Positions 12,624 through 54,068 are shown, numbered from the stretch's first letter. The stretch is DNA of 64,000 nt from an uncultured Verrucomicrobiae bacterium (GCA_937775205.1 CALKBX010000005.1:269087-333086); one strand, 5' to 3'. Notes: generated by a model not told the origin, from the sequence alone. Numbers and translations are program-made.

Positions 12624-12629
12624 ATTCCC

Positions 12630-13826
12630 ATGGGAAAAATCATCCATTCCATCCTGCTATGCGCCATGGCCGTGACCCTTTCGGCCGCCAACCCCGTGCC
12701 TGTGCCCAAGCTGCCCGACGTGCCGCCGGTGCCGCGGGCGGACTTGGAGAAGCAGATTGAGAAAGGCGTTTATTTCCTGCTGGATCGGCAGAACAAAGAC
12801 GGTTCGTGGGGCAGCCCGCGCAACACCAAGGGGCTCAATATTTATGCGCCCGGTTTTCAAAGCCATTATGCCTTTCGGCTGGCGGTGACTTCGCTTTGCG
12901 TCTCAGCCCTCATCGAGACGGGCGGCGACACTCCCCAAACGCGCGCGGCGCTGAAGGACGCCGAGGCCTATTTGCTGGAGCACCTGCCCAAGCTGCGCCG
13001 CGCCGATGCCACGGCGATGTACAATGTGTGGTCGCATGGTTATGGATTGCAGGCATTGGTGCGGCTACGCGCGCGGGCGAAGGCTGAACCGGCGAAGATC
13101 AAAAAAATCGACGCGCTCATCGCGCAACAGTTTAAAATGCTGGGCCGGTACGAATCCGTGGACGGCGGCTGGGGCTATTACGACATGCGTTTGGGCACCA
13201 TGAAACCCGCGAGCAGTTCGATCTCGTTTGTGAATGCCACCGTGCTGGTCGCGTTTCACGAAGCCAAGATGGCCGGCCTTGAGCCGCCCAAAAAACTAGT
13301 GACCCGCGCGCTGGCCGCGCTCAAGCGGCAGCACTTGCCCGACGGCAGTTTTCTTTATGGCGAGTATTTGAAATACTCGCCGCGCCGCGGCATCAACCGC
13401 CCCGGCGGCAGCCTCGGCCGTTCGCAGGCGGGCAACATCGCGCTGCGTTTGTGGGGCGATAAACGCATCACCGACAAAGTTTTGGTCGACTGGCTCGACC
13501 GCCTTTACGCCCGCAACGATTGGCTCGGCATTGGCCGCAAACGCCCGCGGCCGCACGAGGCGTGGTTTCAGGTGGCCGGTTATTTTTATTATTACGGCCA
13601 CTACTACGGCGCGCTGTGCCTCGATCACGTGCCCGCCGCCGAGCGCCCGCGCCTGCAGGATCACATGGCCACCATCATCATGAAGTACCAGGAAAAAGAC
13701 GGCAGTTGGTGGGACTTCCCCTTCTACGATTACCACCAACAATACGGCACCGCGATGGCGCTGATGACATTGCAACGCTGCCTCAAAACCAAATCACCTA
13801 AGGCACCGGCGGTCCCTGAAAAGTAA
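12630..13826 (+). CDS. Secreted prenyltransferase/squalene-oxidase-repeat (terpene-cyclase-like alpha/alpha toroid) protein
   Basis: Signal peptide plus recurring DGSWG, DGGWGYY, DGSFLYG and DGSWWDF repeat motifs. Confidence 0.65.
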   Translation: MGKIIHSILLCAMAVTLSAANPVPVPKLPDVPPVPRADLEKQIEKGVYFLLDRQNKDGSWGSPRNTKGLNIYAPGFQSHYAFRLAVTSLCVSALIETGGDTPQTRAALKDAEAYLLEHLPKLRRADATAMYNVWSHGYGLQALVRLRARAKAEPAKIKKIDALIAQQFKMLGRYESVDGGWGYYDMRLGTMKPASSSISFVNATVLVAFHEAKMAGLEPPKKLVTRALAALKRQHLPDGSFLYGEYLKYSPRRGINRPGGSLGRSQAGNIALRLWGDKRITDKVLVDWLDRLYARNDWLGIGRKRPRPHEAWFQVAGYFYYYGHYYGALCLDHVPAAERPRLQDHMATIIMKYQEKDGSWWDFPFYDYHQQYGTAMALMTLQRCLKTKSPKAPAVPEK

Positions 13827-16755
13827 GCACGAAAGGCCCCGCCAACTGCACGGCGGCCTTGGTGCCTTCGGTGCTCCGCAACTTCACCAGCCAATCGCGC
13901 TGGGTGTTACACAACGAGCGCGGCGCGCGGCGCGTGCGCAGGGCGCGTTGATAAAAATCCTCCATGATTTTAGCCGTCACCGCGTCCGAGATGGGCCAGA
14001 GTGTGAACAGCAGATTTTGCGTGCCCGCCTGCACGAATGCCCGGCGCAGCCCCATCACGCCTTCGCCGGAGTGCACGCGGCCCATTCCGGTTTCGCACGC
14101 GGAAAGCACCGTGAGCCAGTTATCCTCCAAATGCAGCAGGCTGATCTCGGCGGCGGTGACGATGCCGTCGGTGGTGGTGGCGGGAATGCGGCCGGCTTTC
14201 CATTCGGTCAGCGTGCGGTCGGCTCCGGCCAAGGCGAGTCCGCTATTGAGGAGAGATTTTGGAAGGATGCCGCCGGCGCGCGTGCGTCCGCCGGTTTTAG
14301 AAATTTCCTTTGAAGGATTTTTGTTTTTCGGCTTGGTCGCGTTCACGAAAAATCCGTGGGTGGCGAGGTGCAAAATGTGTGGCTGACGCACCGCGTGCAA
14401 TTGGGCTTCGGTGGCAGCTGCGCCGGTGAAGATGCTGGGCTTGAGCTTCCAGCCTTGGGCGGATTGGCGGAGGAATTCCGATTCGCGCAGGGTGCCGGGC
14501 AGCGGGGGCAGAGAGAGCGATTGGAGGTCGCCCGCGCGGGTTTTTCCGCCACCGGCGGGTTGGCCGGGCTTGAATTGTGGATTGGCAAAAGCGATCAACG
14601 CGTCGCTGGCGGGTTTGCGGACGGGCCGCAGTAGGTCACGCCCCGTGGCGATGTGCAGCACTTGATAATTCTCGCAGAGAAATTTTCCGTCCGGCGTCAT
14701 CACGGTGGCGAAGTTAATAAAATTCAACTGGCCGGCGGCGGCGAAGATGAGGGTGTCGGTGGTGGGCGGCAGTTCGTCCAGCACCGGCTGGAGCAAGCGC
14801 CGGTGAAGTTGCCGTAATACTTTTTCATAATCCGCATTGGAGCTGGGCGCGGTGGGATTATAATTTTCAACCAGTTTATTAATGGCCGCCGCGCGCCGAA
14901 TCGGCACCCAGCGTGGCGCGCGCCCGGCGGTGAACACCAGCGCGCTGTATTGGTTGTGCCATTGTTCGCCAAATGCATTTCGGCCCTGATAAGTTTGGTG
15001 CTGCACAAATTCCACCAAAGTGGTTCCGGGCGGGAGGGCCTTTAGCAAATCCGCTACGCGATATTCGGTCCGCGCCTGCCGGGTGTGGCGGGCTAGGGCC
15101 TTTTGCAATCCGTTGAGGATTTGTTTTTGTTTGAACACTTGCAACCCTAGCGGATTCAGCGTTTTGGCATCCTTGGCGAGTGCCTTCTGAAGTTGCAGTC
15201 CAATGAGTTGGGCAGTGGCGGCCTCGATTTGCTCAATGTTTTTCTTCAGCTCCGGCCGCGCCGACAACCGAGCCTGTCGCTGAGCGGCGGCGAGGGAATC
15301 AAGCACGCGCCCTTTTTGGTGCAGCACCAGTTCTGCGATATCCGCGCCGGTACCAAGGCTGATCAGCGGGTGTAGCGGGTCGGTTCTCTCCAGAAAATCA
15401 AAACGCTCTTTTTCTGAGGAGAACGAAAACACTTCCTCGGTGAGCTGCCGTTCGATGGCCCATTTACTACGGGCCCATTCCCGGGCTTGGGCGGGGTTGC
15501 CGAGGTCGTGCTCCAGCAGCGCCAGCTCGCGCATCACCCGCGTGGCCTCGAGGGTGTGGCCGGTGTGAAGGCGGGCGTGGAGGGCGAGTGTTTGTTTGTA
15601 AATATCGCGGGCTTTTTTCAGATTATCCTGCAACACGTGATTGGCGGCGAGGTTGTCGAGTGTGGCGGTGTGGGTGGTGTCGGGCGGGTCGTTGCGTTGT
15701 TTGATGAGTTTCAGGGCAGCAAGCAGATGGGTTTCCGCTTGATTGGGTTCATCGAGTTCCTGATAAAGCTGGGCGAGGTTGTTGTGATCCACGATGACGT
15801 AGGGGTGGTCCGCGCCGAGTTGTTTGCGGTCGATCTCGAGGCATCGCAAATAGAGCCGTTTGGCTTCGTCCATCTTTCCAGTGGCTTGGTGGATGCGGGC
15901 GAGGTTGGCCATGTCGATGGCGGTGAGGTGATGGTCGGCCCCAATGCGGAGGGTGCTGATTTCTAAATTCAACTTGAACTGAGTTTCGGCTTTTTTGAAA
16001 TTGCCGAGCGTTTCGTAGAGCACCGCAAGGTTGGCGCGGGGGATGGTGGTGCGTGGATGGTGCTGGCCGTAGTATTCACGATAGCCATCCAGCGCCTTGA
16101 GATAGGCTTCCTCGGCGAGCTTGTATTGGCCGATGTCCATATAATAAAAGCCGAGGTTGTTGGCGATTTCGCTTTCCACTTCGGCGGCGTGTTCGGGATG
16201 TTTTTTGAGTAATGCGCTGGCCTCATCGAGCCACACTTTGGCGCGCGGATAATGCCCGGCCTCCAGCTCCACCATCGCGGCGTCGGTGATGAGCAGAATG
16301 CGGCTCAACATATCCGCCTCGGGATGCTTGGCGAGTTTAGTGGCTTTCTCGAAAAATTTCATCGAAGCCGCGTACCGGCCGGACTCGTATTCAATGAGCC
16401 CGCGTTCCCATTCGATCTCCATCTGCAAATTGCGATCCGGCTTGGCGGCGAGCAATCCTTCGGCCTGTTTCAGCGCGGCTTGGGCCTTGGGGTAGCCCTG
16501 CAATTCCCGATGCACCACGGCGATTTGGATGAGTGACTTGGCTTGTTCTACGAGGGCGCCATCATTTTTTTGAAAGAGCGCCAGTGCTTTTTGATACGAG
16601 GCGAGTGCTTTTTTGAGTTCGTAATCCTCAAGGTGTTGATCGCCCTGATCGTGCAGCTTTTGGGCTTCTTCCAAAGGCGTAGCGGCGGAAGTAGGCATGG
16701 CAAAACACAACAGCCCGAGGCAAAGGCACAAGAGGATTGTCCGGCTGCGTCCCAT
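13798..16755 (-). CDS. Exported TPR-repeat + CHAT-domain (caspase-like) protease
   Basis: The track ORF (13798-16983) was trimmed to the internal ATG at 16755, giving MGRSRTILLCLCLGLLCFAMPTSAA (signal peptide). The N-terminal ~450 aa are TPR-like. The C-terminus carries a His/Cys dyad typical of CHAT (HLATHGFF ... LSACETG). Confidence 0.8.
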   Translation of the reverse strand: MGRSRTILLCLCLGLLCFAMPTSAATPLEEAQKLHDQGDQHLEDYELKKALASYQKALALFQKNDGALVEQAKSLIQIAVVHRELQGYPKAQAALKQAEGLLAAKPDRNLQMEIEWERGLIEYESGRYAASMKFFEKATKLAKHPEADMLSRILLITDAAMVELEAGHYPRAKVWLDEASALLKKHPEHAAEVESEIANNLGFYYMDIGQYKLAEEAYLKALDGYREYYGQHHPRTTIPRANLAVLYETLGNFKKAETQFKLNLEISTLRIGADHHLTAIDMANLARIHQATGKMDEAKRLYLRCLEIDRKQLGADHPYVIVDHNNLAQLYQELDEPNQAETHLLAALKLIKQRNDPPDTTHTATLDNLAANHVLQDNLKKARDIYKQTLALHARLHTGHTLEATRVMRELALLEHDLGNPAQAREWARSKWAIERQLTEEVFSFSSEKERFDFLERTDPLHPLISLGTGADIAELVLHQKGRVLDSLAAAQRQARLSARPELKKNIEQIEAATAQLIGLQLQKALAKDAKTLNPLGLQVFKQKQILNGLQKALARHTRQARTEYRVADLLKALPPGTTLVEFVQHQTYQGRNAFGEQWHNQYSALVFTAGRAPRWVPIRRAAAINKLVENYNPTAPSSNADYEKVLRQLHRRLLQPVLDELPPTTDTLIFAAAGQLNFINFATVMTPDGKFLCENYQVLHIATGRDLLRPVRKPASDALIAFANPQFKPGQPAGGGKTRAGDLQSLSLPPLPGTLRESEFLRQSAQGWKLKPSIFTGAAATEAQLHAVRQPHILHLATHGFFVNATKPKNKNPSKEISKTGGRTRAGGILPKSLLNSGLALAGADRTLTEWKAGRIPATTTDGIVTAAEISLLHLEDNWLTVLSACETGMGRVHSGEGVMGLRRAFVQAGTQNLLFTLWPISDAVTAKIMEDFYQRALRTRRAPRSLCNTQRDWLVKLRSTEGTKAAVQLAGPFVLTFQGPPVP

Positions 16756-38161: not shown

Positions 38162-38962
38162 ATGGCTGAAACTGAATCGCCCGAACCGTTGCACCCCGAT
38201 CTCATGCCCTCGTTGCGCAAACTGGTGCGCGGGTTGGAGGTGCTCTTTTGGGCGCTGCCCTTCGCGCTGCTCGTGTGTGTGCAGGAAACGATGGTGTCGT
38301 GGTGGGAATCGTGGGGCATCGCCCCCGCGCTGGCGGCGATGGTGCTGCTGTGGTACGGCACGTACAGCCTCAGCCATTTTCAAAAACAAGAACGCGTGTG
38401 GCAGGGCACGGTGAATTTCGCGCAAGTGCTCGCGCTGCTGATGGTGGGGCTCGTGCCCTTCCTCCATTGGCAGCAGCAAATCACGTCCGACACAATGACG
38501 TGGAGCCAAATGAGCGAAGCACAAAAACACGTCGTCTATTCTGCGTGCATCTTTTTCACCGCCGGAATGATGTACGTGCTAAATCTCAACCATGTGCTCG
38601 CACGGCTCGCTGCGATGTTGCCCGATCCCATTCTGCGCGCAGATGTGCGGCTGTTTGTGTATTTGAATTTCGGCCTGTTTCTGTTGTTGGTCATTGGCCT
38701 GTGGATGCATCAAAAAGCGGACGTAGTATTCCTCGGCTTGCGCGAGTTTGCACCGGCGTTTGCTGAAAGCATCGGCAGCTACCTTGGACTCGCCGCGATG
38801 ATGAAAGCCGCCATCCTGTGGGCGGCCACGCTCGTCGTCACCTTGACGATGACGATGCTGTGGAAAACGAAAGAGGCCATTCTCAAAAGCGTATTCAGCC
38901 TTGAACCGCCACCCTTACCGGAAGCGGCGGCCGCGGATGAAGTAGATCCCTCGCTGAATTAA
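38162..38962 (+). CDS. Hypothetical integral membrane protein
   Basis: About 6 hydrophobic segments, starting 3 nt after the speA stop. No family was recognised. Confidence 0.6.
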   Translation: MAETESPEPLHPDLMPSLRKLVRGLEVLFWALPFALLVCVQETMVSWWESWGIAPALAAMVLLWYGTYSLSHFQKQERVWQGTVNFAQVLALLMVGLVPFLHWQQQITSDTMTWSQMSEAQKHVVYSACIFFTAGMMYVLNLNHVLARLAAMLPDPILRADVRLFVYLNFGLFLLLVIGLWMHQKADVVFLGLREFAPAFAESIGSYLGLAAMMKAAILWAATLVVTLTMTMLWKTKEAILKSVFSLEPPPLPEAAAADEVDPSLN

Positions 38963-40062
38963 GCGGCTTTGGCATCGACGAGCCCGTACCAATTATCCCG
39001 CTGGCGCGGTTCGTAGCCGAGGTCTTTTATCAATCGCTGCATATCGGCCACGTCCATGCAGTAAACCGTGCCGGCTTTGGACACCACGTTTTCTTCGATC
39101 ATAATGCTGCCCAGATCGTTCGCCCCGTGTCGCAGTGCCACTTGGCCAATCTCGCGCCCTTGCGTGACCCACGAGCTTTGGATGTTGTCGATGTTATCCA
39201 AATAAATCCGCGAGAGCGCCTGCATCCGGAGGTACTCATGCGCGCCGACGGTGGGCGCTTTGAGTCGCGTGTTCTCCGCTTGAAACGTCCACGCGATGAA
39301 TGCGGTGAAGCCTTTGGTATCATCCTGCTGCACGCGCACGCGCTCCAAATGTTCGATGCGTTCCTCCACCGTTTCCACGTGGCCGAACATCATCGTGGCG
39401 GTAGTGGCGAGACTTTGGCGGTGGGCGATGGCCATTACTTCCAGCCATTCGTCGCTCATCGCTTTGAGTGGAGAAATTTTTTGGCGCACGCGGTCCACCA
39501 GAATTTCCCCGCCGCCGCCGGGGATGGAGCCCAATCCCGCCGCGCGGAAATCGCGGATGATGTCTTCCAGCGGCTCATCAAAAACCTCGCGGAAATGAAT
39601 GAACTCGCTCGGCGAAAATCCGTGCACGTTGATGGACGGGAATTTTTCACGAATGTGCGAAAGTAAATCGAGATACCATTGCTTATTCAATTTGGGATGG
39701 TGTCCGCCTTGCATTAAAATTTGCGTGCCATCCAGCGCGAGGGTTTCCTCGATTTTTTGGTCGATCTCATCGTGCGTGATCACGTAAGCATCCGCCGCTT
39801 TCTCGCTGCGCCAAAACGCGCAAAACTTGCAGTACACATTGCAGACGTTGGTGTAATTGATATTGCGGTCGATGCTGAAGGTGATGATGTCATTGCCGCG
39901 TCCTTCAAAGGCATCTTCTTTAGCCAGTTCACGCCTGCGATGAGCCAGAGCTCCTAAGGTTTCCAAGGGAAGCGTATAAAGACGCAAGGCTTCGTCAGAA
40001 GAAATGCGTTTTCCTGACCATGTTTTGTGCAGGAGTTTGTCTATGGAAGGATCATGGATCAT
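38959..40062 (-). CDS. mqnC: Radical-SAM cyclic dehypoxanthinyl-futalosine synthase
   Basis: NINYTNVCNVYCKFCAFW (CxxxCxxC), ILMQGGHHP. The start was set at the ATG at 40062 (MIHDPSIDKLL...) rather than the TTG at 40101. The mqnC versus mqnE assignment rests on my recollection of the QGGHHP/CAF pattern. Confidence 0.75.
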   Translation of the reverse strand: MIHDPSIDKLLHKTWSGKRISSDEALRLYTLPLETLGALAHRRRELAKEDAFEGRGNDIITFSIDRNINYTNVCNVYCKFCAFWRSEKAADAYVITHDEIDQKIEETLALDGTQILMQGGHHPKLNKQWYLDLLSHIREKFPSINVHGFSPSEFIHFREVFDEPLEDIIRDFRAAGLGSIPGGGGEILVDRVRQKISPLKAMSDEWLEVMAIAHRQSLATTATMMFGHVETVEERIEHLERVRVQQDDTKGFTAFIAWTFQAENTRLKAPTVGAHEYLRMQALSRIYLDNIDNIQSSWVTQGREIGQVALRHGANDLGSIMIEENVVSKAGTVYCMDVADMQRLIKDLGYEPRQRDNWYGLVDAKAA

Positions 40063-40129
40063 CCGGGGAGCAAATGTACGCACTTCACTCCCGAACCGCA
40101 AGGAAGGGGGGGCACTCCTTTATAAAAGA

Positions 40130-41320
40130 TTATTTTTCGGAAGCAGAATTTTGTTTTCCGATTTTGAGATCATAGGTGGTTTCTCCAATTTTCACAACCA
40201 CGGTGCTGGCGGTCACATCAACGCTGATCACTTTCACGCCATCCTGATCTTCTCCAACTGCCAGTTCGTAGTATTGGGCTTTCTTTCCTCTCGGTGGCGA
40301 TATTCTCAGGATGGCTTTTGTGCGGCCATTAATCCGAAGCAGTCCCGCAAGTTGCGGGGCATCGACAGGGACGAATTCTTCAATTTCAGGAGGCTTTTCA
40401 ACTTTGGGCGGCGGTATTAGGCGAAAAGCATCTGATTTCGCAAATGTTTGGGAGGCATTGTCGAGATATTGATGTATTGCTTTGTTTTGCTCTTCATTAT
40501 TGTTCATACCAAATAGTAGCTGGCCGATGGCCTCGAAGCCATTTACTCCCGCATTTGGTTTGAGGATATGAATGCTCAAGGAAAGCTGAACTTGGAGCCG
40601 CTGGCGGTCAGCGGTGGTCGATATCTTCATATCACGCACACGAACGCTCGCCATTTCCTGGTTGATGCCTCGGATGAAATCCGCCAGATCCTTAGGATCA
40701 CACACGAAAGAAACGTTACGCCTGTGTTCATGGAAAATCTGGGCCTTTTTTGGGCGGGCACCGCGAGCAACACTATTGCGTGTAAGAGTAATGCCAGCAC
40801 GTTGGGCGTTTCTTCGAATTCCTTCCAGTAGCTTTTGGGCTTGACTGGCATCCCCAGCGAAGGGGAGGGAGCCACTGGGTATTGATTTACCTCCAGCTTC
40901 ATTAGTCTGTATACTGGCAAATATCTGGTTGTAGGCTTTCTTTTCCTTTTGCAGTTTGGCGGCAACACTCTTTAAACGCTTCTTTCCATCGAGAAATATT
41001 TTCAGGGGGCTTCGTTCCTCCATTTCCCACTTGTAATTAACAGGCTCCGGGGCTTCAGGCAGGATTAGGTTGCTTGCGTTAACAGCATCCGGCCGAATCA
41101 TGCAAACAATTGTCCACCGCCCACGCCCTTCAGTGCCGGCTGCCTCTTCGTGCTGCGATGAGAGCATGACATCGTGAAACAACTTCCGTTGTTTTTTGGA
41201 AACCGGATCAGGCACCATAATTCTTGCGAGGTTATTGCGATAGTCATCCACCCGTTTGCCCTGCCCGGATTTCACCTCACCGTTGAGCGTGATATTGTTT
41301 CCCTCACCCCTCACCTTCAC
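40130..41320 (-). CDS. Hypothetical protein with PilN-end / PilO-like / PilP-like segments (low-GC insert)
   Basis: GTG start, 396 aa. VKVRGEGNNITLNGEVKSGQ...YRNNLARI resembles the PilN core. SFVCDPKDLADFIRGINQEMASVRVRDMKISTT...LQVQLSLSIHIL resembles a PilO/GspM ferredoxin-like end. LLRINGRTKAILRI...YYELAVGEDQDGVKVISVDVTASTVVVKIGETTYDLKI resembles a PilP/GspC beta domain. It is in the same frame as 41348-41632. Confidence 0.5.
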   Translation of the reverse strand: MKVRGEGNNITLNGEVKSGQGKRVDDYRNNLARIMVPDPVSKKQRKLFHDVMLSSQHEEAAGTEGRGRWTIVCMIRPDAVNASNLILPEAPEPVNYKWEMEERSPLKIFLDGKKRLKSVAAKLQKEKKAYNQIFASIQTNEAGGKSIPSGSLPFAGDASQAQKLLEGIRRNAQRAGITLTRNSVARGARPKKAQIFHEHRRNVSFVCDPKDLADFIRGINQEMASVRVRDMKISTTADRQRLQVQLSLSIHILKPNAGVNGFEAIGQLLFGMNNNEEQNKAIHQYLDNASQTFAKSDAFRLIPPPKVEKPPEIEEFVPVDAPQLAGLLRINGRTKAILRISPPRGKKAQYYELAVGEDQDGVKVISVDVTASTVVVKIGETTYDLKIGKQNSASEK

Positions 41321-41347
41321 CGAATTGATAAAGCCCAGTGACAGTTC

Positions 41348-41632
41348 TTACGGAATGTTGCCCGCAGCTGCTTCCAAGGTGTTCATTGCCAACAGGCGAG
41401 ACCTCTTGGCATTCACAACCTGCATTAATATACTCTGCCGATCTTCGTATTCTTTGCTTAGCTTATGATTTTCCCTTGATAATTGGTAGGCACGTTCCTC
41501 CTCGGCCGCAATAGGTTTCAATATGAATTGATTGAAGGCGAGATAGCTGGTTAATCCAAAAATAATCAATATGCCGGGGATAATTAAAAAAAGCCTAGGC
41601 CCTTTCAATCCAGTGTTTGTCTTGTGGCTCAC
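41348..41632 (-). CDS. Single-pass membrane + coiled-coil protein (PilN/PilO N-terminal-like), ends at an in-frame TAA
   Basis: MSHKTNTGLKGPRLFLIIPGILIIFGLTSYLAF (TM) is followed by a coiled coil. Its stop TAA (41348-41350) is followed by 9 sense codons and then ORF 40130-41320, all in the same frame. Confidence 0.5.
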   Translation of the reverse strand: MSHKTNTGLKGPRLFLIIPGILIIFGLTSYLAFNQFILKPIAAEEERAYQLSRENHKLSKEYEDRQSILMQVVNAKRSRLLAMNTLEAAAGNIP

Positions 41633-41710
41633 ACCACTTAAACTACCATTCCCGATTTCTGAGTCAAATTATATCCCATTACAATTTAGGCGGAAAATTA
41701 TAGTGTATTA

Positions 41711-41842
41711 TTATACGATAACTGGCTTGAACACGGGTTGGTTGCCATGAGTCCCTAGTAGCTCAATGAATTTATTGAGGCCGGCCTTTTCACGTCCGCC
41801 AAAGTTGTAGCGGATATGGTCTCTGTATTTCTGTGGTGAAAA
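41711..41842 (-). pseudogene. Orphan duplicate of the last ~43 codons of an mqnA homologue
   Basis: Translation is FSPQKYRDHIRYNFGGREKAGLNKFIELLGTHGNQPVFKPVIV*. The intact MqnA C-terminus is NFRQTYLGGHIQYELGDAEKAGLAKFSELLETHGETEVFTPLFV*. The last 29 residues are 17/29 identical by my count. The fragment begins 1 nt after the intact mqnA stop and is visibly more AT-rich. Confidence 0.7.
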
Positions 41843-41843
41843 A

Positions 41844-42593
41844 TCAAACAAACAAAGGCGTGAAGACCTCTGTTTCTCCGTGCGTTTCCAGCAGCTCCGA
41901 AAATTTTGCCAAACCTGCTTTCTCGGCGTCGCCGAGTTCGTATTGGATGTGGCCGCCGAGGTAGGTTTGGCGGAAATTGGCGTCGTAGTCGGGGTAGGTT
42001 TCGATGGTTTGGGCGAGGTGAGCGAGTCCGTTGGTTTTGGCGGTACGGAGTTTTTCGCGCAGGGGCTTGTCGTGATGACCACGGCGGAGTGCCCAGACGG
42101 CGTAGACGAAAGGGAGGTTGGTGAGTTCGTGCCACGCGGCGCCGAGATCCCAGATTTTGTGCTCGTGCGGGGCTCGTAGGAAATCGATGGCGGGATTGCC
42201 GATAAGTAAAACATTTTCCAACGAAACGGATTGGCGATAGCCACCGAGAGGTTCCAGCTTTGGGCTGCGGCCGCGCTCGGCGAAGAGCACGCGCAGGAGG
42301 TTCACGCTGGTGAGGCTGGCGGTGTCGCAGTGGATGGTTTCGATTTCATCCAGCGGCTGGCGGTGTGCGAGGAAGACGCTCTTCACCGCGCCGCGCGAGG
42401 CGACGGCCACGCCATCGAGCATATCGTAGCCGTCGTGAAAAAGCGCCTCGGTGATGCTCACAAGAGCGGCATCGTGTTGGCCGGCCCGCAGTTTTTCTGC
42501 CAAACGCGAGGGCACATCGTATTCCGTTTCGTGCTCGATGCCATGAGTGAGCGGCACGGAATTGAGATAAGGAACGGAGCCGATGCGTTTCAT
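41844..42593 (-). CDS. mqnA: Chorismate dehydratase (futalosine pathway)
   Basis: MKRIGSVPYLNSVPLTHGI..., 249 aa, periplasmic-binding-protein-like fold family. It overlaps mqnE by 4 nt. Confidence 0.85.
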   Translation of the reverse strand: MKRIGSVPYLNSVPLTHGIEHETEYDVPSRLAEKLRAGQHDAALVSITEALFHDGYDMLDGVAVASRGAVKSVFLAHRQPLDEIETIHCDTASLTSVNLLRVLFAERGRSPKLEPLGGYRQSVSLENVLLIGNPAIDFLRAPHEHKIWDLGAAWHELTNLPFVYAVWALRRGHHDKPLREKLRTAKTNGLAHLAQTIETYPDYDANFRQTYLGGHIQYELGDAEKAGLAKFSELLETHGETEVFTPLFV

Positions 42594-43765
42594 GCGGTGG
42601 CCAAATTATCGTCCAGTAAATTGGGCGGCACGGAATCATCCGGCGAATGGGGGGCGTCAGGTGTGTCATCGGTCCATTCGCGGACGGGTTCGTAAAAGGT
42701 GTTGCGTTGCACGGGCGTTTTGCCGGCTTCGCGAATGGCTTTGATGAGGGCGGCCTCGGGTTGGCATTGGGGCGCGCCGGTACCGGCCATTCGGAAAATG
42801 TTTTCTTCCACGATGGTGCCGTGCAAATCATCGGCGCCGTAGCTGAGTGCCACTTGGGCGAGTTTCATCCCGAGGCCCACCCAATACGCGGTGAGATGGT
42901 CAAAGTTATCAAGAAATAAACGGCTAACGGCGATGGTGCGGAGTGCGTCGTTGCCGGTGGGCGGATGCGTGACGGGTATGGCGTTATTCTCGGGTTGATA
43001 AGGCAGCGGAATGAAACCGGTGAAGCCGCCGGTCTCGTCCTGCAAAGCGCGCAGTTGGGCGAGGTGATCAATGCGTTGCTCGATGGTTTCTACGTGGCCA
43101 AAGAGCATCGTGCACGTGCTGCGCCCGCCGAGTTGATGCCACGTGCGATGGGCATCGAGATATTCGCTGGCGGTTTCTTTGCCCTTGGCGATAGCGTCAC
43201 GCACGTCTTGCTGGAAAATTTCCGCACCGCCGCCAGTGAGCGAATCCAGTCCGGCGGCCTTCAACGTGGCGAGCACTTCGGGCATTGGCTTTTTGCTGAT
43301 GCGGGCGAGGTGGTAAATCTCCACGGCGGTGAAGCATTTGAGCTGGAGATTTGCATTGAGCGCCTTCAGCGCGCGCAGCATTTCGGTATAATAATCAAAC
43401 GGCAGCGAGGGATGCAGTCCGCCGACGATGTGGAGCTCGGTTATATTGAGCGCCAGCGCTTCCTTGGCCTTCGCCACTATTTCGTCGATAGAAAGTTCGA
43501 AGCCATCGCCATTGCGTTTCTTGCGCGCGAAGCTGCAGAATTGGCATGAGAGGATGCAGTAGTTGGAATAATTGATGTAGCGGTTGACGATGTAACTGGC
43601 GCGGTTGCCGACCTTGCGTTCGGTGGCCAGCGAGGCGAGTCGGCCGAGGGCATTGAGGTCTGGCGTGCGAAATAGGCGCAGGGCATCGTCGGCCTCAAGG
43701 CGCGTGTTGGATTCGACTTTTTCGGCAAGGTCGGCCAGTTCGCTTTTTTGCAAAATGAAATCCAT
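42590..43765 (-). CDS. mqnE: Radical-SAM aminodeoxyfutalosine synthase
   Basis: The start was trimmed to the ATG at 43765 (MDFILQKSELADLAEKV...). NYSNYCILSCQFCSF, TELHIVGGLHP, LDSLTGGGAEIF, CTMLFGHVE and LQDETGGFTGFIPLPYQ match what I recall of SCO4494-type MqnE. Confidence 0.75.
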   Translation of the reverse strand: MDFILQKSELADLAEKVESNTRLEADDALRLFRTPDLNALGRLASLATERKVGNRASYIVNRYINYSNYCILSCQFCSFARKKRNGDGFELSIDEIVAKAKEALALNITELHIVGGLHPSLPFDYYTEMLRALKALNANLQLKCFTAVEIYHLARISKKPMPEVLATLKAAGLDSLTGGGAEIFQQDVRDAIAKGKETASEYLDAHRTWHQLGGRSTCTMLFGHVETIEQRIDHLAQLRALQDETGGFTGFIPLPYQPENNAIPVTHPPTGNDALRTIAVSRLFLDNFDHLTAYWVGLGMKLAQVALSYGADDLHGTIVEENIFRMAGTGAPQCQPEAALIKAIREAGKTPVQRNTFYEPVREWTDDTPDAPHSPDDSVPPNLLDDNLATA

Positions 43766-44919
43766 CACCACAATCTCCACGAAACAAAGCGGCCAACAAG
43801 GCTGACCTCGGTGACCACCATAATCAAAAACACCATGCTGACAACGCCGTTGAGATTGAAGAACGCGCGTTGTACCCAATCGAGGCTGCGCTTGCGGGCG
43901 ATCCAATGCTCGAGCAACACGCACGCGGAAATGATAATCAGGCCAATCCAGTAAGACATTTTGAACGCGGCGAACAATCCAAAGAGCGTCAGCAACGCGA
44001 GCAACAACATATGCATCAGCAGCGAAGCGGTCAGCGCGTTGTCGGGCCCCCAGCGGACAACCAGTGAATGCAGCTTGTGATCACGGTCGAATTCGAAATC
44101 CTGAATCGCATAAATGATGTCGAAGCCGATGAGCCACAGCACCACCGACGCCGCCATAATGGTGGGCAGGAAAGCGCTGTGTCGCAGCGGGTCTTTAATG
44201 TCCGGCGAAAAATCAAACGAACCATTCACCGCCAGCCACGCGCCAATCGGGGCGATGGCCAGCGCGATGCCGAGGAAGACGTGCGTGAAATCGGTAAATC
44301 TTTTTGTGAGTGAATAGCCGAGAATAAAAAGTAACGCCACCGGCGACAGAAAAAAACACACGAGTCGTCCTTGATGCGCGTCGCGCACCATATCGATTCC
44401 GTAAGTGGTGGCGATGAAACCCAGCGCGCTAAGGATGCAAAGCGTCCACGCGCTGGTGAGGGAGATTTTGCCGGCGGGTAAATGGCGGTCCTTCGTGCGC
44501 GGATTGGCGGCATCGAATTTGCGGTCCGCGATGCGATTGAACGCCATCGCGCAAGTGCGCGCGGTGATCATCGCCAGCAGGATGAGGCCGAAAAGTTTCC
44601 AGCCCGGCCAGCCGAGCTTCATCAACGGCGCGGCTTCTTGTGCTTCGAGATCCAGCACCGCAAACCCCGCCCGCGCCGCCAGCACCATCGAGGCCAGCGC
44701 GAAGGGGAGGGCAAAGATGGTGTGCGAAAACTTGACGAACCCGCCCCATTTTTCGAGGAGGGAGGGTTTGGGTTCGTTGGATTCGTCTTTGCGCGGCACG
44801 GACACAGCGTGGAGGTTTGGCGGGGGAAAAGCAAAAGAAGAAATCACAATTGAAAATTGTGATGGTAGGGCGGTTTCTCCGAAACCGCTTTGGCGCGCTC
44901 GGAGAGCACTCCCTACCAT
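43765..44919 (-). CDS. UbiA-family aromatic prenyltransferase (likely the futalosine-pathway MqnP role)
   Basis: FVKFSHTIFALPFAL..., NRIADRKFDAANPRTKDR (the Asp-rich NxxxDxxxD motif) and a second DFEFDRD motif. The start is uncertain. The ATG at 44919 overlaps the ubiX stop by 1 nt in the same way mqnE overlaps this gene, but the first ~45 aa are not family-like. Confidence 0.75.
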   Translation of the reverse strand: MVGSALRARQSGFGETALPSQFSIVISSFAFPPPNLHAVSVPRKDESNEPKPSLLEKWGGFVKFSHTIFALPFALASMVLAARAGFAVLDLEAQEAAPLMKLGWPGWKLFGLILLAMITARTCAMAFNRIADRKFDAANPRTKDRHLPAGKISLTSAWTLCILSALGFIATTYGIDMVRDAHQGRLVCFFLSPVALLFILGYSLTKRFTDFTHVFLGIALAIAPIGAWLAVNGSFDFSPDIKDPLRHSAFLPTIMAASVVLWLIGFDIIYAIQDFEFDRDHKLHSLVVRWGPDNALTASLLMHMLLLALLTLFGLFAAFKMSYWIGLIIISACVLLEHWIARKRSLDWVQRAFFNLNGVVSMVFLIMVVTEVSLVGRFVSWRLW

Positions 44920-52398: not shown

Positions 52399-52785
52399 AT
52401 GACACGGCAAACGGGTATCCTCATCATTTTCCTCACGGCGCTGCTGCTGGGCGGCTGCGCCCGCGCCACGCTCACCAACCTCACGGTGGGCCAACAGCCG
52501 CGCGACGCCAATGGCCTTTATCGCGTGGAAATCATTTGGGAAAACAACGCCAACGGCGTCCGCCACGAGACGGTGCAGCCAGTGGTGCTGGTGGGCACCA
52601 ATGTATTCCCCATGGCGCGCACGGCACTGGTTTCCAGCCGCTGGGAGACGCTCCTGCCCGTGGCGGCCGATGCGGCGGGCGTGGCTTATCGCGTTCGGGT
52701 GGACTGGGAATTCAATGCCATTCCTGTTCCTGAGGCCAATAGTAAAATGTCTGGGGCGTTTCAGTTGATCATAAAAGACAAATGA
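52399..52785 (+). CDS. Hypothetical lipoprotein (128 aa)
   Basis: ILIIFLTALLLGGCARA carries a lipobox. The stop overlaps the next start (ATGA). Confidence 0.6.
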   Translation: MTRQTGILIIFLTALLLGGCARATLTNLTVGQQPRDANGLYRVEIIWENNANGVRHETVQPVVLVGTNVFPMARTALVSSRWETLLPVAADAAGVAYRVRVDWEFNAIPVPEANSKMSGAFQLIIKDK

Positions 52786-53198
52786 GCCGGTCGATGCCAA
52801 GCTGGATTCGTCACGCCATGCGGATTGCCGTGGTTGTCACTCTTGCTTTTGGGTTGGGGCCGCGTTTGGAATTGCTGCAATTGGTTGCTTGGAGTAATAT
52901 GACTTCAGTGAATCTCGAGGTCATGCCTATGGATCAGGCAATTGAGAAAGCTATGAGTGGGCAGGATATCTGTGGCATTTGCCGAATCATCCAGCAAACC
53001 CAAAACTGCCAGAATGAAGTGCCTGACGAATCCATTTTGGCGAAGATTTTCAATCCGTTGATCTCTTTACCCCCCCCCAATGGCGTTAGAGTTACTGAGG
53101 TTTCCTTTGGGTCATCATATTTAATTTTCGATCCGTGTTCTATTTTTATAATTGAACAACCCTCTCCCCCATCGCCACCGCCTCAATTGGTGGTTTAG
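52782..53198 (+). CDS. Hypothetical membrane protein with CGIC motif and Pro-rich C-terminus
   Basis: One N-terminal hydrophobic segment, LELLQLVAWSNM, DICGICRII, and an end reading QPSPPSPPPQLVV. It lies in lower-GC sequence. Confidence 0.5.
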   Translation: MSRSMPSWIRHAMRIAVVVTLAFGLGPRLELLQLVAWSNMTSVNLEVMPMDQAIEKAMSGQDICGICRIIQQTQNCQNEVPDESILAKIFNPLISLPPPNGVRVTEVSFGSSYLIFDPCSIFIIEQPSPPSPPPQLVV

Positions 53199-53315
53199 CT
53201 TCCTTTTCCTTCAAACACAAAATCCGTCAAGTGCCTATGAGGCTCTCTACGGTTTATAGAAGTGACCTGACACGTTGCTACTCAAAATACAAAAATTTAA
53301 AATCCGAGATATAAC

Positions 53316-54068
53316 ATGAATAAAGAGAAAATAAATAAAACGCGTCAAACAGGTTTTACTCTAATTGAACTTCTGGTGGTTATCGCAATTATTGGAATCT
53401 TAGCCTCCATGCTCCTGCCCGCCCTCGCGCGTGCTAAGGCCAAGGCTGCCCGCATCAAGTGCGTAAACAATCTTGCGCAGATTGGCAAAGCTTCCATTGG
53501 CTTTGCTCAGGACAACGGAGGTCGGATGCCTTGGCAATTGACCCCCCGTGGAATCATGAATCATTTTGGTCATCACACAATGCATTCCCGAATGACGGGT
53601 TGTATTATTGGGACGGCGGCCATGAAAAGCGAACTGCAGACGGCTAAGATAATCACCTCCCCCTGTGATGCCGCCCGCGAGGCTGCAAATGAGGTTTGCC
53701 AGTCCAAATGGGCAAGCTATAACACAAAGGCTCAAGGCCATAACATGGAGTTGGCAAAGGCGATCAGTTATGGGTTTGTAGAGGGTGCTGACAGTGTTCG
53801 TCCCGCCTCCATCCTCGCGGTGACACTAAACGTGCATGGCGAGGACCTTGCGGCTGCTGATTGGTGTGGTGCGGATGAAGACTCCCCGCCTGCGAACGCT
53901 TTCACCGGGCTAAATAAAAGTCAGGGCCAGTTGGTGTTAATGGATGGTAGCGCGAAGCAATCTACCGATGCAGACCTTGGAGCCAGTGGTAAGCTCGTTA
54001 AGTCGCACATTAATTCCAGAGGCGGAGTGACCATGGGGCCTTCTAAAACTAAGGTGTTTCGAAAATAG
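53316..54068 (+). CDS. Prepilin-type N-terminal cleavage/methylation domain protein (DUF1559-like pseudopilin)
   Basis: [35 protein letters not shown] is the class III signal (G/F cleavage, E+5). The C-terminal [10 protein letters not shown] resembles the DUF1559 HX9DG-type end. Confidence 0.85.

What the first reader, a model, noticed from the sequence alone, without database searches (positions are those of the whole stretch)
40063..41843. Low-GC insert splitting the futalosine operon, encoding a single PilN/PilO/PilP-like reading frame interrupted by TAA
**Composition.** Between mqnA (stop at 41844) and mqnC (start at 40062) the sequence becomes visibly AT-richer. Several 60-nt lines are about 35-45% GC, against roughly 60% in the flanks. 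This is by eye, not computed.

**The reading frame**
- The insert holds ORFs 41348-41632 and 40130-41320. They are in the same frame, separated only by a TAA (41348-41350) plus 9 sense codons.
- The junction reads ...LEAAAGNIP*ELSLGFINSVKVRGEGNNITLNGEVKSGQ...YRNNLARI.
- This looks like one continuous PilN-type core (P-x-x-V-x-L..., then an x-L-x-G block) cut by the stop.
- Read through, it gives a ~500-codon protein: TM, coiled coil, PilN-like, PilO/GspM-like, and PilP/GspC-like beta domain. That would be three pilus or secretion alignment-complex modules in one chain.

**Context**
- No pilM, pilQ, ATPase or pilin gene is adjacent, and the position inside a menaquinone operon is unexpected.
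- It may be a horizontally acquired orphan, a nonsense-inactivated gene, or a new envelope protein unrelated to pili. The domain assignments rest only on my pattern recall.
Basis: partly seen in the sequence, partly recalled or inferred. Interest (0 to 1): 0.7.

Follow-up and report, generated by a model that had tools for sequence, protein, structure and literature searches.

The report
Broken pilus-scaffold gene inside menaquinone operon
A horizontally exchanged, AT-rich DNA tract wedged between two vitamin-K2 (menaquinone) biosynthesis genes of a marine verrucomicrobium carries a previously undescribed gene that strings pilus/secretion "alignment" modules (PilN-like, PilO/GspM-like, probably PilP-like) into one protein, and in this strain the gene has just been killed by a single stop-codon mutation.

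Summary
Window 39800-41823 is the most compositionally deviant stretch of the 64-kb window: GC 47.5%, z -5.2; tetranucleotide z +7.1; GC3 49-55% against 69-73% in the flanks.

The two ORFs are one gene, X. All relatives are single ORFs of 477-543 aa with Glu (GAA) where the window has TAA. The TAA recurs in independent assemblies, while sister strains 96-98% identical keep X intact. It is therefore a real, recent nonsense mutation.

X is a TM helix plus coiled coil followed by three modules:
- PilN/GspL-periplasmic-like, paralogous to the C-terminus of a PilM-like fusion (61%, 7e-60).
- PilO/GspM-like. This is well supported: 56% to a stand-alone 194-aa protein, whose family hits T2SSM and PilO and solved PilO structures.
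- A six-strand beta domain that is only suggestively PilP-like (TM 0.44, not significant).

X is the survivor of a four-gene cassette, found in relatives, that includes two pore-less secretin N-domain proteins. A 3.1-kb deletion removed the rest.

The cassette is absent from 80 reference Verrucomicrobiota loci. Where mqnA and mqnC are collinear there, 8 of 9 gaps are 9-374 bp.

A 37-codon relic of a foreign mqnA 3' end, and a 99-100% identical tract running into mqnC, mark import by one-sided homologous recombination.

X is a new variant of a known kind; the window's copy is a pseudogene.

The parts
41844..42593 (-). Resident mqnA (249 aa, GC 58.8%, GC3 70%). This is the left boundary of the insert.
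   Evidence: PF02621 E 3e-42. Only 72% aa identity to L001 mqnA with saturated dS, while its neighbours are 92-96% identical. Composition matches the host.
41824..41843 (-). About 20 nt of filler at the non-homologous left junction, directly after the mqnA TGA stop.
   Evidence: No counterpart in L001 or L012. Homology to L001 resumes at 41823.
41711..41823 (-). Relic of a second, foreign mqnA 3' end: 37 codons plus stop, reading HIRYNFGGREKAGLNKFIELLGTHGNQPVFKPVIV*.
   Evidence: 60% aa identity to the resident mqnA C-terminus, but 80-89% to the functional mqnA 3' ends of the X-bearing relatives L001 and L006. 96% nt identity to L001. Present in the window, L009, L004 and L005.
41633..41710 (-). 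78-nt spacer between the relic and the X start. It has the same length as the mqnA-X spacer of L001.
   Evidence: L001 mqnA ends at 9922 and X starts at 10001. 96% nt identity.
41351..41632 (-). X codons 1-94: a short cytoplasmic N-terminus, one TM helix (residues about 13-33, window 41534-41596) and a long coiled-coil helix.
   Evidence: Kyte-Doolittle maximum 2.3 at residues 14-32, and this is the only TM segment. AF2 helix 21-99 in P0001 numbering. dN/dS 0.15-0.5.
41348..41350 (-). TAA nonsense codon at X codon 95, which is GAA (Glu) in every relative.
   Evidence: Alignment of 10 intact homologues. The same split is seen in L009 (ENA, 190-kb contig), a JGI contig and a Logan assembly. X is intact in L004 and L005, which are 96-98% nt identical.
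41087..41364 (-). Module 1, the PilN/GspL-periplasmic-like alpha/beta core (X codons about 93-182). It is a gene-conversion patch derived from the 3' end of the core cluster's PilM-like fusion gene.
   Evidence: 84-90% nt identity to L002 11188-11464 and L093 7195-7464 in window-type alleles, and none in the L092/L003-type alleles. 61% aa identity, E 7e-60. AF2 shows beta-beta-alpha-beta-beta-beta at pLDDT about 70. The relatives hit PilM_2 (7 of 18), PilN (2 of 18) and T2SSL (1 of 18) weakly.
40538..41020 (-). Module 2, PilO/GspM-like: a long helix followed by an alpha-beta-alpha-beta-beta domain (X codons about 205-365).
   Evidence: Window X matches the L002 194-aa protein at E 6e-21. L001 X matches it at 56%, E 4e-30. 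NCBIfam GspM E 0.012 and Pfam T2SSM_b E 0.012 fall on the same segment. Of 31 stand-alone relatives, 22 hit T2SSM, 15 T2SSM_b and 10 PilO. Their profile hits PilO 3jc8_O at 6e-5 and 2rjz at 3e-3. Top Foldseek hits are PilO 2rjz and 5uvr, followed by Amuc_1100.
40163..40450 (-). Module 3: a conserved Pro-rich linker plus a six-strand beta domain (X codons about 395-490). It is possibly PilP/GspC-HR-like.
   Evidence: AF2 domain model pLDDT 75.7, core 82-90. PilP 2ivw, 2lc4 and 3jc8_P have the highest TM-scores (0.40-0.44) but E-values of 0.07-0.6. No Pfam or PDB sequence hit. More than 40 stand-alone relatives exist.
40130..40142 (-). Junction of a 3.1-kb deletion, plus the X stop codon. X codon 498 is joined at a TTCC microhomology to the last two codons and stop of cassette gene 4.
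   Evidence: L001 11495-14622 is missing. An independent second junction exists in L092.
39800..40129 (-). Right end of the exchanged tract: the X-mqnC spacer plus the first ~260 nt of mqnC (low GC, GC3 54.5%).
   Evidence: 99-100% nt identity to L001 over 40079-39854, against a genomic baseline of 87-88%. The GC dip is seen.
38959..40101 (-). mqnC (radical SAM). It is a mosaic: the 5' end is imported and the 3' part is resident.
   Evidence: PF19288 2.5e-39 and PF04055. Identity profile.

Best explanation
The region is a horizontally exchanged, low-GC tract of about 2 kb (about 39800-41823), sitting between the futalosine-pathway genes mqnA and mqnC of a marine verrucomicrobium. It carries one gene, X, which has been inactivated in this strain.

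What X encodes (shown).
- In all intact relatives X is a bitopic inner-membrane protein of about 500 aa.
- It has an N-terminal TM helix and a long coiled coil.
- These are followed by a PilN/GspL-periplasmic-like alpha/beta domain, a second helix with a PilO/GspM-like alpha/beta domain, and a C-terminal six-strand beta domain.

How it likely works (inferred).
- The PilN-like and PilO-like halves pair with each other within one chain, as PilN and PilO, or GspL and GspM, do as heterodimers.
- The C-terminal beta domain contacts secretin N0/N1 domains, as PilP or GspC do.
- The partner could be the core secretin, or the two pore-less secretin-N-domain proteins encoded next to X in the full cassette.
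- X would therefore be a one-polypeptide version of the periplasmic alignment scaffold of a type II secretion or type IV pilus machine.

Origin (shown).
- X is a paralogue of the core cluster seen in L002 and L093: ATPase, PilM-like/PilN-like fusion, 194-aa GspM/PilO-like protein, secretin.
- Pieces of those genes have been copied into X.

State in this window (shown).
- A 3.1-kb deletion removed the X tail and the three partner genes. This state is shared with many relatives.
- A G-to-T change then turned Glu95 (GAA) into TAA.
- What can be made is a 94-aa membrane stub. At most there is also a 396-aa fragment without any export signal.
- The periplasmic scaffold is therefore lost, and X is a young pseudogene in this strain lineage.

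How the tract arrived (inferred from the junctions).
- It entered by recombination that was homologous at one end, inside mqnC, and illegitimate at the other end, just after the resident mqnA stop.
- This left 37 codons of the donor's mqnA as a relic.
For: One gene.
- Ten homologues are uninterrupted with Glu at the TAA position.

TAA is real and recent.
- The same 94 + 396 aa split occurs in L009 (99.7-100% identical), in a JGI contig and in a Logan assembly.
- X is intact in L004 and L005 at 96-98% nt identity.
- There are no frameshifts or additional stops.

Modules.
- Paralogy E-values are 7e-60, 4e-30 and 7e-53.
- The profile search splits X into three groups of stand-alone relatives.
- Pfam and PDB hits of those relatives support T2SSM and PilO well, and PilM_2, PilN and T2SSL weakly.
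- Fold hits go to PilO and Amuc_1100, and more weakly to PilP.

Cassette and deletion.

Insert status.

Exchange.
- dS of X is 0.04-0.37 against 0.3-3.0 in the flanks.
- The tract running into mqnC is 99-100% identical to L001.
- The relic is documented.

Function in intact lineages.
- dN/dS is 0.3-0.6 over dS up to about 1, and the ORFs remain intact.

Gene conversion.

Recombination type.
- One-sided homologous integration is an established process, homology-facilitated illegitimate recombination (PMC3240628).
Against: - No experiment or structure shows that the modules pair, or that module 3 binds a secretin.
- The module-3 fold match to PilP is not significant.
- The full-length AF2 model is poor (pLDDT 51).
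- dN/dS of 0.6-1.3 in close comparisons could mean that X is already under relaxed selection in the X-only state. If so, 'functional scaffold' may hold only for the four-gene cassette.
- The direction of the mqnA replacement is inferred from GC and asymmetric dN, not proven. Either the resident mqnA is native and the relic imported, or the reverse.
- Whether this genome has the core ATPase/secretin cluster cannot be seen in a 64-kb window.
- Re-initiation at GTG 41320 and a residual role for the fragments are not excluded.
Confidence: 0.8

Rival explanations
1. The two ORFs are two genuine, separately functional genes: a 94-aa membrane-anchored coiled-coil protein and a 396-aa soluble protein. 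This would be a split-gene variant of X.
For: - The split is annotated as two genes in public assemblies and recurs in several of them.
- A GTG lies 10 codons after the TAA.
- No further lesions have accumulated.
Against: - The split is confined to one near-clonal lineage (99.7-100% identity).
- All ten other homologues, including strains 96-98% identical, are single ORFs.
- ORF2 has no TM segment or signal sequence, so its PilN/PilO/PilP-like domains would stay in the cytoplasm.
- The cut falls at the very start of the PilN-like core.
Confidence: 0.07
2. The TAA is a sequencing or assembly error, or it is read through or recoded, so a full-length protein is still made.
For: - It is a single-base difference (GAA to TAA) in an otherwise intact frame.
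Against: - The same TAA-implying split appears in independent assemblies from different sources: NCBI, ENA ERZ8136131, JGI and Logan SRR35646192.
- L009 DNA shows the same 94 + 396 aa arrangement.
- TAA also terminates X itself and the relic, so it is a normal stop codon here.
- No recoding signal is known for TAA in bacteria (general knowledge).
Confidence: 0.04
3. X is a decaying duplicate with no function of its own in any lineage. It would be a hitch-hiking remnant of a duplicated secretion cluster, kept only because deleting it risks the essential mqnA and mqnC neighbours.
For: - dN/dS is 0.6-1.3 in close comparisons.
- g2-g4 were deleted twice independently.
- X has a nonsense mutation here.
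- The cassette lacks an ATPase, PilM and a pore domain.
- L001 gene 4 appears N-terminally truncated.
Against: - The ORF is intact, without frameshifts, in at least six divergent lineages over dS of about 0.5-1.1, with dN/dS 0.3-0.5. A neutral sequence of 500 codons would not stay open that long.
- X has spread between lineages (low dS relative to the flanks), which is easier to explain if it is useful.
- Both deletions kept X in frame.
Confidence: 0.15
4. The low GC is not due to transfer. It reflects intrinsic constraints, such as the amino-acid composition of a Lys/Asn/Ile-rich periplasmic protein or a local mutation bias.
For: - X is low-GC in every host regardless of genome GC: 44-49% in genomes of 45-58%.
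Against: - GC3 is also depressed: 49-55% against 69-73%.
- The anomaly extends into non-X sequence: the relic, the spacers and the mqnC 5' end.
- dS of X is several-fold lower than in the flanks.
- There is a 99-100% identical tract against an 87-88% baseline.
- X is present or absent between genomes that are 92.5% identical.
Confidence: 0.05

Closest known systems
PilN-PilO-PilP alignment subcomplex of type IVa pili (P. aeruginosa, M. xanthus)
   Same: - The order and kind of parts match: a bitopic TM plus coiled coil plus ferredoxin-like periplasmic core, occurring twice (PilN then PilO), followed by a small beta domain in the position where PilP acts.
- Fold and profile hits go to PilO (2rjz, 5uvr, 3jc8_O).
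- PilP structures are the best TM matches for module 3.
   Different: - All three parts are in one polypeptide with a single TM helix.
- Module 3 is not a lipoprotein.
- No PilM-binding N-terminal motif was tested.
- No adjacent pilM, pilQ, ATPase or pilin gene.
- None of X's own modules reaches a Pfam gathering score.
GspL-GspM-GspC inner-membrane platform of type II secretion
   Same: - Module 1 is paralogous to the periplasmic end of a PilM-like/PilN-like fusion with GspL-type architecture.
- Module 2 and its relatives hit T2SSM and T2SSM_b.
- Module 3 plus secretin N0/N1 partners recalls the GspC-HR/GspD-N0 contact.
   Different: - No cytoplasmic GspL-like domain, so no link to the ATPase.
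- No PDZ domain.
- The cassette's secretin homologues lack the pore domain.
Verrucomicrobial pilus-like cluster containing Amuc_1100 (Akkermansia muciniphila)
   Same: - Amuc_1100 structures (6lad, 6kny, 6laf) are among the top fold hits.
- Amuc_1100 has two alpha-beta-beta motifs resembling T4P/T2SS proteins, and a protein of the same gene cluster, Amuc_1098, is annotated PilQ (PMC13119276).
- The core cluster in L002 and L093 (ATPase, fusion, 194-aa PilO-like, secretin) has a comparable make-up.
   Different: - X is a multi-module fusion placed in a menaquinone operon, not in that cluster.
- Sequence identity to Amuc_1100 is only 10-13%.
Orphan PilM/PilN/PilO co-opted into the Helicobacter pylori flagellar motor cage (PMC10823254)
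   Same: - These are PilN/PilO-type proteins encoded away from any pilus genes.
- It is a precedent for alignment-complex paralogues serving another envelope structure.
   Different: - In H. pylori they are separate genes with PilM, and they have a demonstrated location and phenotype.
- For X no partner structure is known, and Verrucomicrobiota of this clade show no linked flagellar genes here.
Homology-facilitated illegitimate recombination (PMC3240628)
   Same: - One end of the imported tract lies in homologous sequence: mqnC, 99-100% identity to L001.
- The other end is a non-homologous join with filler and a duplicated gene end.
   Different: - This is inferred from sequence only. The donor is unknown, and the uptake route (transformation, other) was not tested.

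Membership tests
PilO / GspM (Pfam PF04350, PF04612, PF10741): module 2 | Sequence match to the family profile at or above the curated threshold | tested here: not met
   X itself scores only E 0.012 (15-16 bits) against NCBIfam GspM and Pfam T2SSM_b. Both are below cutoff, but both fall on the same segment.
PilO / GspM: module 2 | Transitive homology through intermediate sequences to bona fide PilO or GspM | tested here: met
   X matches stand-alone ~195-aa proteins at E 1e-20 to 1e-30. Of 31 of these, 22 hit T2SSM (best 3e-7), 15 T2SSM_b and 10 PilO. Their profile hits solved PilO 3jc8_O at 5.7e-5 and 2rjz at 2.6e-3.
PilO / GspM: module 2 | Ferredoxin-like alpha-beta-beta repeat fold preceded by a coiled-coil helix | tested here: met
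   AF2 secondary structure shows H207-247 followed by alpha-beta-alpha-beta-beta at 269-364. Top Foldseek hits are PilO 2rjz (3.5e-5) and 5uvr (TMt 0.71, rmsd 3.8 A). Caveat: the model has low confidence, and the tool does not report which module aligned.
PilO / GspM: module 2 | Own N-terminal TM anchor | tested here: not met
   X has only one hydrophobic segment, at residues 9-34. Module 2 is tethered through module 1.
PilN / GspL periplasmic domain (PF05137, PF12693-type): module 1 | TM plus coiled coil plus alpha/beta periplasmic core, encoded after or fused to a PilM/GspL-like cytoplasmic domain in a cluster with ATPase and secretin | tested here: met
   This holds for the paralogue. The L002 and L093 fusion protein sits between the T2SSE ATPase and the 194-aa PilO-like protein plus secretin. 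X residues 17-182 are 61% identical to its residues 325-488. X itself lacks the PilM-like part.
PilN / GspL periplasmic domain: module 1 | Sequence match to the PilN or T2SSL profile | tested here: inconclusive
   X gives no hit. Among 18 fusion relatives, 7 hit PilM_2 (best 1e-3), 2 hit PilN (5.5e-3) and 1 hits T2SSL (4.8e-3). All are below threshold.
PilP / GspC HR domain: module 3 | Small beta-sandwich fold matching PilP or GspC-HR | tested here: inconclusive
PilP / GspC HR domain: module 3 | Sequence match to the PilP or T2SS_C profiles | tested here: not met
   No recurrent Pfam family among 39 members. No PDB sequence hit.
PilP / GspC HR domain: module 3 | Binding to the secretin N0 domain | not testable with these tools
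   The only evidence is circumstantial. The full cassette encodes two secretin N0/N1-only proteins next to X.
Functional T4P/T2SS locus | Presence of ATPase, platform protein, prepilin peptidase, pilins and a pore-forming secretin with X | tested here: not met
   None is adjacent in the window or in L001 and L003. The cassette secretin homologues lack PF00263. The core cluster lies elsewhere in the genome (L093).
Pseudogene (nonsense-inactivated) | Premature stop relative to intact orthologues, real in the population, with loss of an essential part | tested here: met
   GAA to TAA at codon 95 of 500. It is seen in independent assemblies. The downstream part lacks an export signal.

The most novel reading that the evidence does not exclude
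The intact four-gene cassette consists of single-chain PilN-PilO-PilP-like X, a 423-aa TM protein with 'ELGLxLYxG' repeats, and two pore-less secretin N0/N1 proteins.

It may build a previously unknown periplasmic ring or cage that needs neither an ATPase nor an outer-membrane pore.

This would be a co-opted 'alignment complex' comparable to the H. pylori flagellar PilMNO cage, serving some other envelope function. Candidates are modulating the core secretin, or organising a respiratory or menaquinone-linked membrane domain.

It would spread between marine Verrucomicrobiota as a recombination cassette targeted to the mqnA-mqnC junction.
Probability: 0.12. Interest if true: 0.7.

Novelty: new variant of a known kind. 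Interest (0 to 1): 0.42.

Why it matters
For this window, the practical result is an annotation correction. The two 'hypothetical proteins' are one nonsense-inactivated gene, the spacer after mqnA contains a relic of a foreign mqnA, and mqnC is a mosaic.

More broadly, X defines an undescribed protein family. It has no Pfam or NCBIfam model and every copy is annotated as hypothetical. It puts the PilN-, PilO/GspM- and probably PilP-type modules of pilus and secretion machines on one chain, next to secretin N-domain proteins that have no pore.

The family offers three things:
- a natural 'fused' construct for structural work on how these modules pair;
- a further example of alignment-complex paralogues living outside pilus loci;
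- a clean natural case of cassette exchange by one-sided homologous recombination, with repeated gene conversion from the paralogous core genes, two independent deletions and a fresh nonsense mutation. Together these form a time series of gain, reduction and loss.

It does not by itself open a long-standing question.

Tried and rejected
- Pfam and NCBIfam scans on the two ORFs gave nothing significant, only GspM at E 0.012.
- A PDB sequence search with the X profile gave only a chance bL17 hit at E 0.16. The module-3 profile gave nothing.
- The full-length AF2 model on 10 sequences was poor (pLDDT 51). I used it only for secondary structure and with caution for Foldseek.
- A scan of GTDB species representatives for X found no relative. 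The family is missing from reference genomes, so organism names came from an mqnC-anchored scan instead.
- An exact look-up of the window's own 396-aa product found no record, so the window's assembly accession stays unknown.
- My intermediate idea that the resident high-GC mqnA is the newcomer and X the old resident (after) was dropped.
  - The resident mqnA matches the host's GC and GC3.
  - L001's mqnA is low-GC and closer to the low-GC lineages (dN 0.17 against 0.25), while mqnE is equidistant.
  - X, the relic and the mqnC 5' end share very low divergence between lineages.
  - The opposite polarity is not formally excluded.
- Promoter and terminator scans gave nothing above shuffled expectation.
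- No tRNA or integrase-type landmark is near the insert; the only tRNA is at 18.3 kb. A classical genomic island or mobile element is therefore not supported.
Full report
**1. The observation**

The minus strand between mqnA and mqnC holds two ORFs, 41348-41632 (94 aa) and 40130-41320 (396 aa). They are in the same frame. They are separated by TAA at 41348-41350 and nine sense codons.

- 41844-42593 is MqnA (PF02621, E 3e-42).
- 38959-40101 is an MqnC-type radical SAM enzyme.
- 42590-43924 is a second enzyme of that type.

Composition is clearly abnormal.
- Window 40102-41843 is 47.0% GC, the lowest stretch of its size in the window (mean 58.2%, sd 2.8%).
- For the refined tract 39800-41823, GC is 47.5% (z = -5.2).
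- Its tetranucleotide distance from the window average is larger than in any non-overlapping window of the same size (z = +7.1).
- Third-position GC is 49-55%, against 69-73% in all neighbouring genes.

**2. One gene, broken by a real mutation**

A search with the read-through translation found ten homologues of 477-543 aa that cover the whole query without interruption. All have Glu at the TAA position ("NIPEELSL"), so the lesion is a single GAA-to-TAA change.

It is not a read error.
- The same 94 + 396 aa split is present in an independent 190-kb ENA contig (L009, 99.7-100% identical).
- The 396-aa product also occurs in a JGI contig and a Logan assembly, in a genotype that differs by two residues.

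Two metagenome contigs that are 96.2% and 97.6% identical to the window over 6.3-6.6 kb (L004, L005) carry the gene intact. The nonsense allele is therefore a recent variant within one species-level population. There are no other stops or frameshifts.

The only hydrophobic segment of the protein is at residues 9-34, upstream of the stop. Anything translated from the downstream ORF would lack an export signal.

**3. What the gene (X) encodes**

Neither Pfam nor NCBIfam recognises X. The only hints are GspM-type hits at E 0.012, from two different libraries, on the same middle segment.

A profile search of 1.8 billion representatives split X into three modules, each with stand-alone relatives:
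- residues about 18-180 match the C-terminal third of 450-550-aa proteins;
- residues about 255-363 match ~195-aa proteins;
- residues about 395-498 match 200-360-aa proteins.

Context of the first two.
- In L002 and L093, the 492-aa protein lies directly after a T2SSE/MshEN ATPase. Its N-terminal ~310 aa give weak PilM/GspL hits.
- It lies directly before a 194-aa protein and a full secretin.

Paralogy:
- X residues 17-182 are 61% identical (E 7e-60) to the C-terminus of that fusion.
- X residues 269-362 are 56% identical (E 4e-30) to the 194-aa protein.

Evidence that module 2 is PilO/GspM-like.
- Of 31 stand-alone relatives of the 194-aa type, 22 hit T2SSM (best 3e-7), 15 hit T2SSM_b and 10 hit PilO.
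- Their profile finds the solved PilO chains 3jc8_O (5.7e-5) and 2rjz (2.6e-3).
- The full-length AF2 model is weak (pLDDT 51). Its secondary structure nonetheless shows a TM plus long helix, an alpha/beta domain, a second long helix, an alpha-beta-alpha-beta-beta domain and a six-strand beta domain.
- Its best PDB matches are PilO (2rjz, 5uvr, 3jc8_O), followed by Amuc_1100 of Akkermansia.
- Amuc_1100 has two alpha-beta-beta motifs similar to T4P/T2SS proteins (PMC13119276).

Evidence for module 3.
- I modelled it separately on 39 sequences (pLDDT 75.7, core 82-90).
- No PDB match is significant.
- The three PilP structures have the highest TM-scores in the list: 0.44, 0.44 and 0.40, against 0.30 or less for the rest.
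- No Pfam family recurs among its relatives.

My reading of the three modules:

| Module | Assignment | Support |
|---|---|---|
| 2 | PilO/GspM-like | established |
| 1 | PilN/GspL-periplasmic-like | well supported by paralogy and context |
| 3 | PilP/GspC-like | a reasonable but unproven reading |

**4. X is the remnant of a cassette**

In the related genome L001 (87-88% nt identity, fully syntenic), the mqnA-mqnC gap holds four genes:
- X (543 aa, with a Ser/Pro/Gly-rich tail);
- a 423-aa TM protein with no known domain;
- two proteins of 273 and 247 aa that consist of secretin N0/N1 domains only. Gene 4 is 54% identical to residues 42-197 of the core secretin, and neither has a pore domain.

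A more distant contig (L003) has the same four genes.

The window lacks L001 positions 11495-14622. This 3.1-kb deletion joins X codon 498, at a TTCC microhomology, to the last two codons of gene 4.

A second lineage (L092) has a different junction. There, X "...KIEK" is joined to gene 4 "LKSNAKE*" at a 9-nt near-repeat. The three partner genes were therefore lost at least twice, each time leaving X in frame.

The same assembly that holds L001 also holds the complete core cluster (L093), so X is a paralogue and not a replacement.

The 64-kb window has no ATPase, PilM, secretin or cassette partner. It does have a prepilin-type gene at 53316-54068.

**5. Insert status and mode of arrival**

The cassette is a clade-restricted insertion.
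- Among 80 mqnC-anchored loci from species representatives of Verrucomicrobiota, none has X or a cassette gene.
- In 8 of the 9 loci where mqnA lies upstream on the same strand, the gap is 9-374 bp.
- The nearest reference, single-cell genome AG-365-D08 (L012), has a 71-bp gap.
- L012 is 92.5% identical to the X-bearing contig L008 right up to the mqnA stop.

X moves between lineages. Its synonymous divergence is several-fold lower than that of its neighbours:

| Comparison | dS in X | dS in flanks |
|---|---|---|
| versus L001 | 0.09-0.12 | 0.30-0.67 |
| versus L006 | 0.22-0.37 | 1.6-3.0 |
| L001 versus L006 | 0.04 | 0.83 |

The window-to-L001 identity profile shows the boundaries:
- 93-96% in mqnE;
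- about 70% across mqnA;
- 96-97% from 41823 through the start of X;
- 99-100% across the X-mqnC spacer and the first ~260 nt of mqnC;
- then back to the 87-90% baseline.

The left boundary consists of the resident mqnA stop, about 20 nt of filler, and then 37 codons plus stop of a second mqnA 3' end (41711-41823).
- This relic is 60% identical to the resident C-terminus.
- It is 80-89% identical to the functional mqnA ends of L001 and L006.
- The relic is shared by the window, L009, L004 and L005.

This geometry has homology at the mqnC end and a non-homologous join with a duplicated gene end at the other. It is what homology-facilitated illegitimate recombination produces (PMC3240628).

I favour the resident, host-like mqnA (58.8% GC, GC3 70%) as native, and the relic, X and mqnC 5' end as imported.
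- L001's mqnA is low-GC (50.5%).
- It is closer to the low-GC lineage than the window's mqnA is (dN 0.17 against 0.25), while mqnE is equidistant (0.15 against 0.16).
- The reverse polarity is not strictly excluded.

**6. Mosaicism**

- In window-type alleles, X codons 93-182 are 84-90% identical at the DNA level to the 3' end of the core fusion gene. This is the PilN-like core, and it contains the TAA site.
- The L092 and L003 type alleles have no DNA-level similarity there.
- A second patch of 58-69 nt matches the 194-aa gene in L001 and L005 only.
- Pieces of the core genes have therefore been copied into X repeatedly.
- This helps to explain the high apparent dN/dS of 0.6-1.3 in close comparisons.
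- In deeper comparisons dN/dS is 0.3-0.6 and the ORF stays open over dS of about 0.5-1.1. That argues for moderate purifying selection on intact copies.

**7. Mechanism**

Shown:
- the anatomy;
- the paralogy;
- the deletion;
- the nonsense mutation;
- the exchange signatures.

Inferred:
- intact X is anchored in the inner membrane by its single TM helix;
- its PilN-like and PilO-like halves pair within one chain, as PilN/PilO or GspL/GspM do;
- its C-terminal beta domain contacts secretin N0/N1 domains, either the core secretin or the cassette's pore-less paralogues.

In this window the stop at codon 95 leaves only the TM and coiled-coil stub. The scaffold is lost and the gene is a young pseudogene. 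Orphan PilM/N/O proteins co-opted into the H. pylori flagellar cage (PMC10823254) show that such modules can serve other envelope machines.

**8. Novelty and verdict**

I found no description of a single-chain PilN-PilO-PilP-type protein or of this cassette. All database copies are unnamed.

X is a new variant of a known kind of component. The copy in this window is an inactivated remnant.

The caveat is that the PilP assignment is only suggestive, and that the tract's true limits are about 39800-41823. Interest is moderate.

Noticed in passing
window 53316-54068 (+), within a second low-GC spot at about 52700-53800: A 250-aa protein with a classic prepilin/pseudopilin N-terminus (G|[17 protein letters not shown]; Pfam N_methyl E 2.5e-9). 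It sits in a stretch of 43-47% GC. Two small unknown ORFs lie just upstream, at 52399-52785 (lipoprotein-like) and 52782-53198.
   Followed up: partly
L001:11639-12910: Cassette gene 2 (423 aa). It has an N-terminal TM helix and a Ser/Arg/Gly-rich region. It carries three C-terminal repeats of the form (G/R)ELG(M/L)(L/V)(F/L)Y(K/T)G. It has no Pfam hit and no paralogue in the core cluster. The orthologue in L003 is 47-49% identical.
   Followed up: partly
L001:12921-13742 and 13892-14635; L003:2984-4500: Two tandem secretin paralogues that keep only the N0/N1 domains and lack the pore-forming secretin domain. Gene 4 of L001 starts at the equivalent of core-secretin residue 42, so as annotated it has no signal peptide.
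   Followed up: partly
protein P0054 (551 aa): A relative in which a Ser/Thr protein kinase C-lobe and a TM segment are followed by X-like modules 1 and 2 (profile positions 18-352). This suggests that PilN/PilO-type modules also serve as the periplasmic part of a membrane kinase.
   Followed up: no
L092:2830-2870 compared with window 40130-40165: Two independent in-frame deletions removed the X tail and genes 2-4, using different microhomologies: TTCC in one lineage and ATCGA(A/G)AAA in the other.
   Followed up: yes
L010:9001-9942 (P0038) and L011: Stand-alone module-3 proteins (~310 aa) are orphans located after ilvC, with no secretion genes nearby. They carry long Pro/Ser/Gly-rich tails that end like the X tail of L001 and L003. 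One family member carries a peptidoglycan-binding domain (PG_binding_1, E 1.7e-13).
   Followed up: partly
window 41844-42800 compared with L001, L004 and L005: mqnA and the 3' end of mqnE form a divergence hot spot even within the species. Against L004, dS is 0.22-0.34 here, compared with 0.02 in ubiA and mqnC. mqnA is only 72% identical to L001's. This indicates repeated allele replacement around the insertion site.
   Followed up: partly
window 38162-38962 (+): A conserved 266-aa multi-TM protein of unknown function (no Pfam hit). It lies convergent with mqnC and next to speA, and it is syntenic in all relatives (L001, L005, L009).
   Followed up: no
window 41850-41875 (-): A terminator-like hairpin with a T-rich tail overlaps the resident mqnA stop and the filler. 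It is weak (3 G-C pairs) and the scan is not above shuffled expectation.
   Followed up: no
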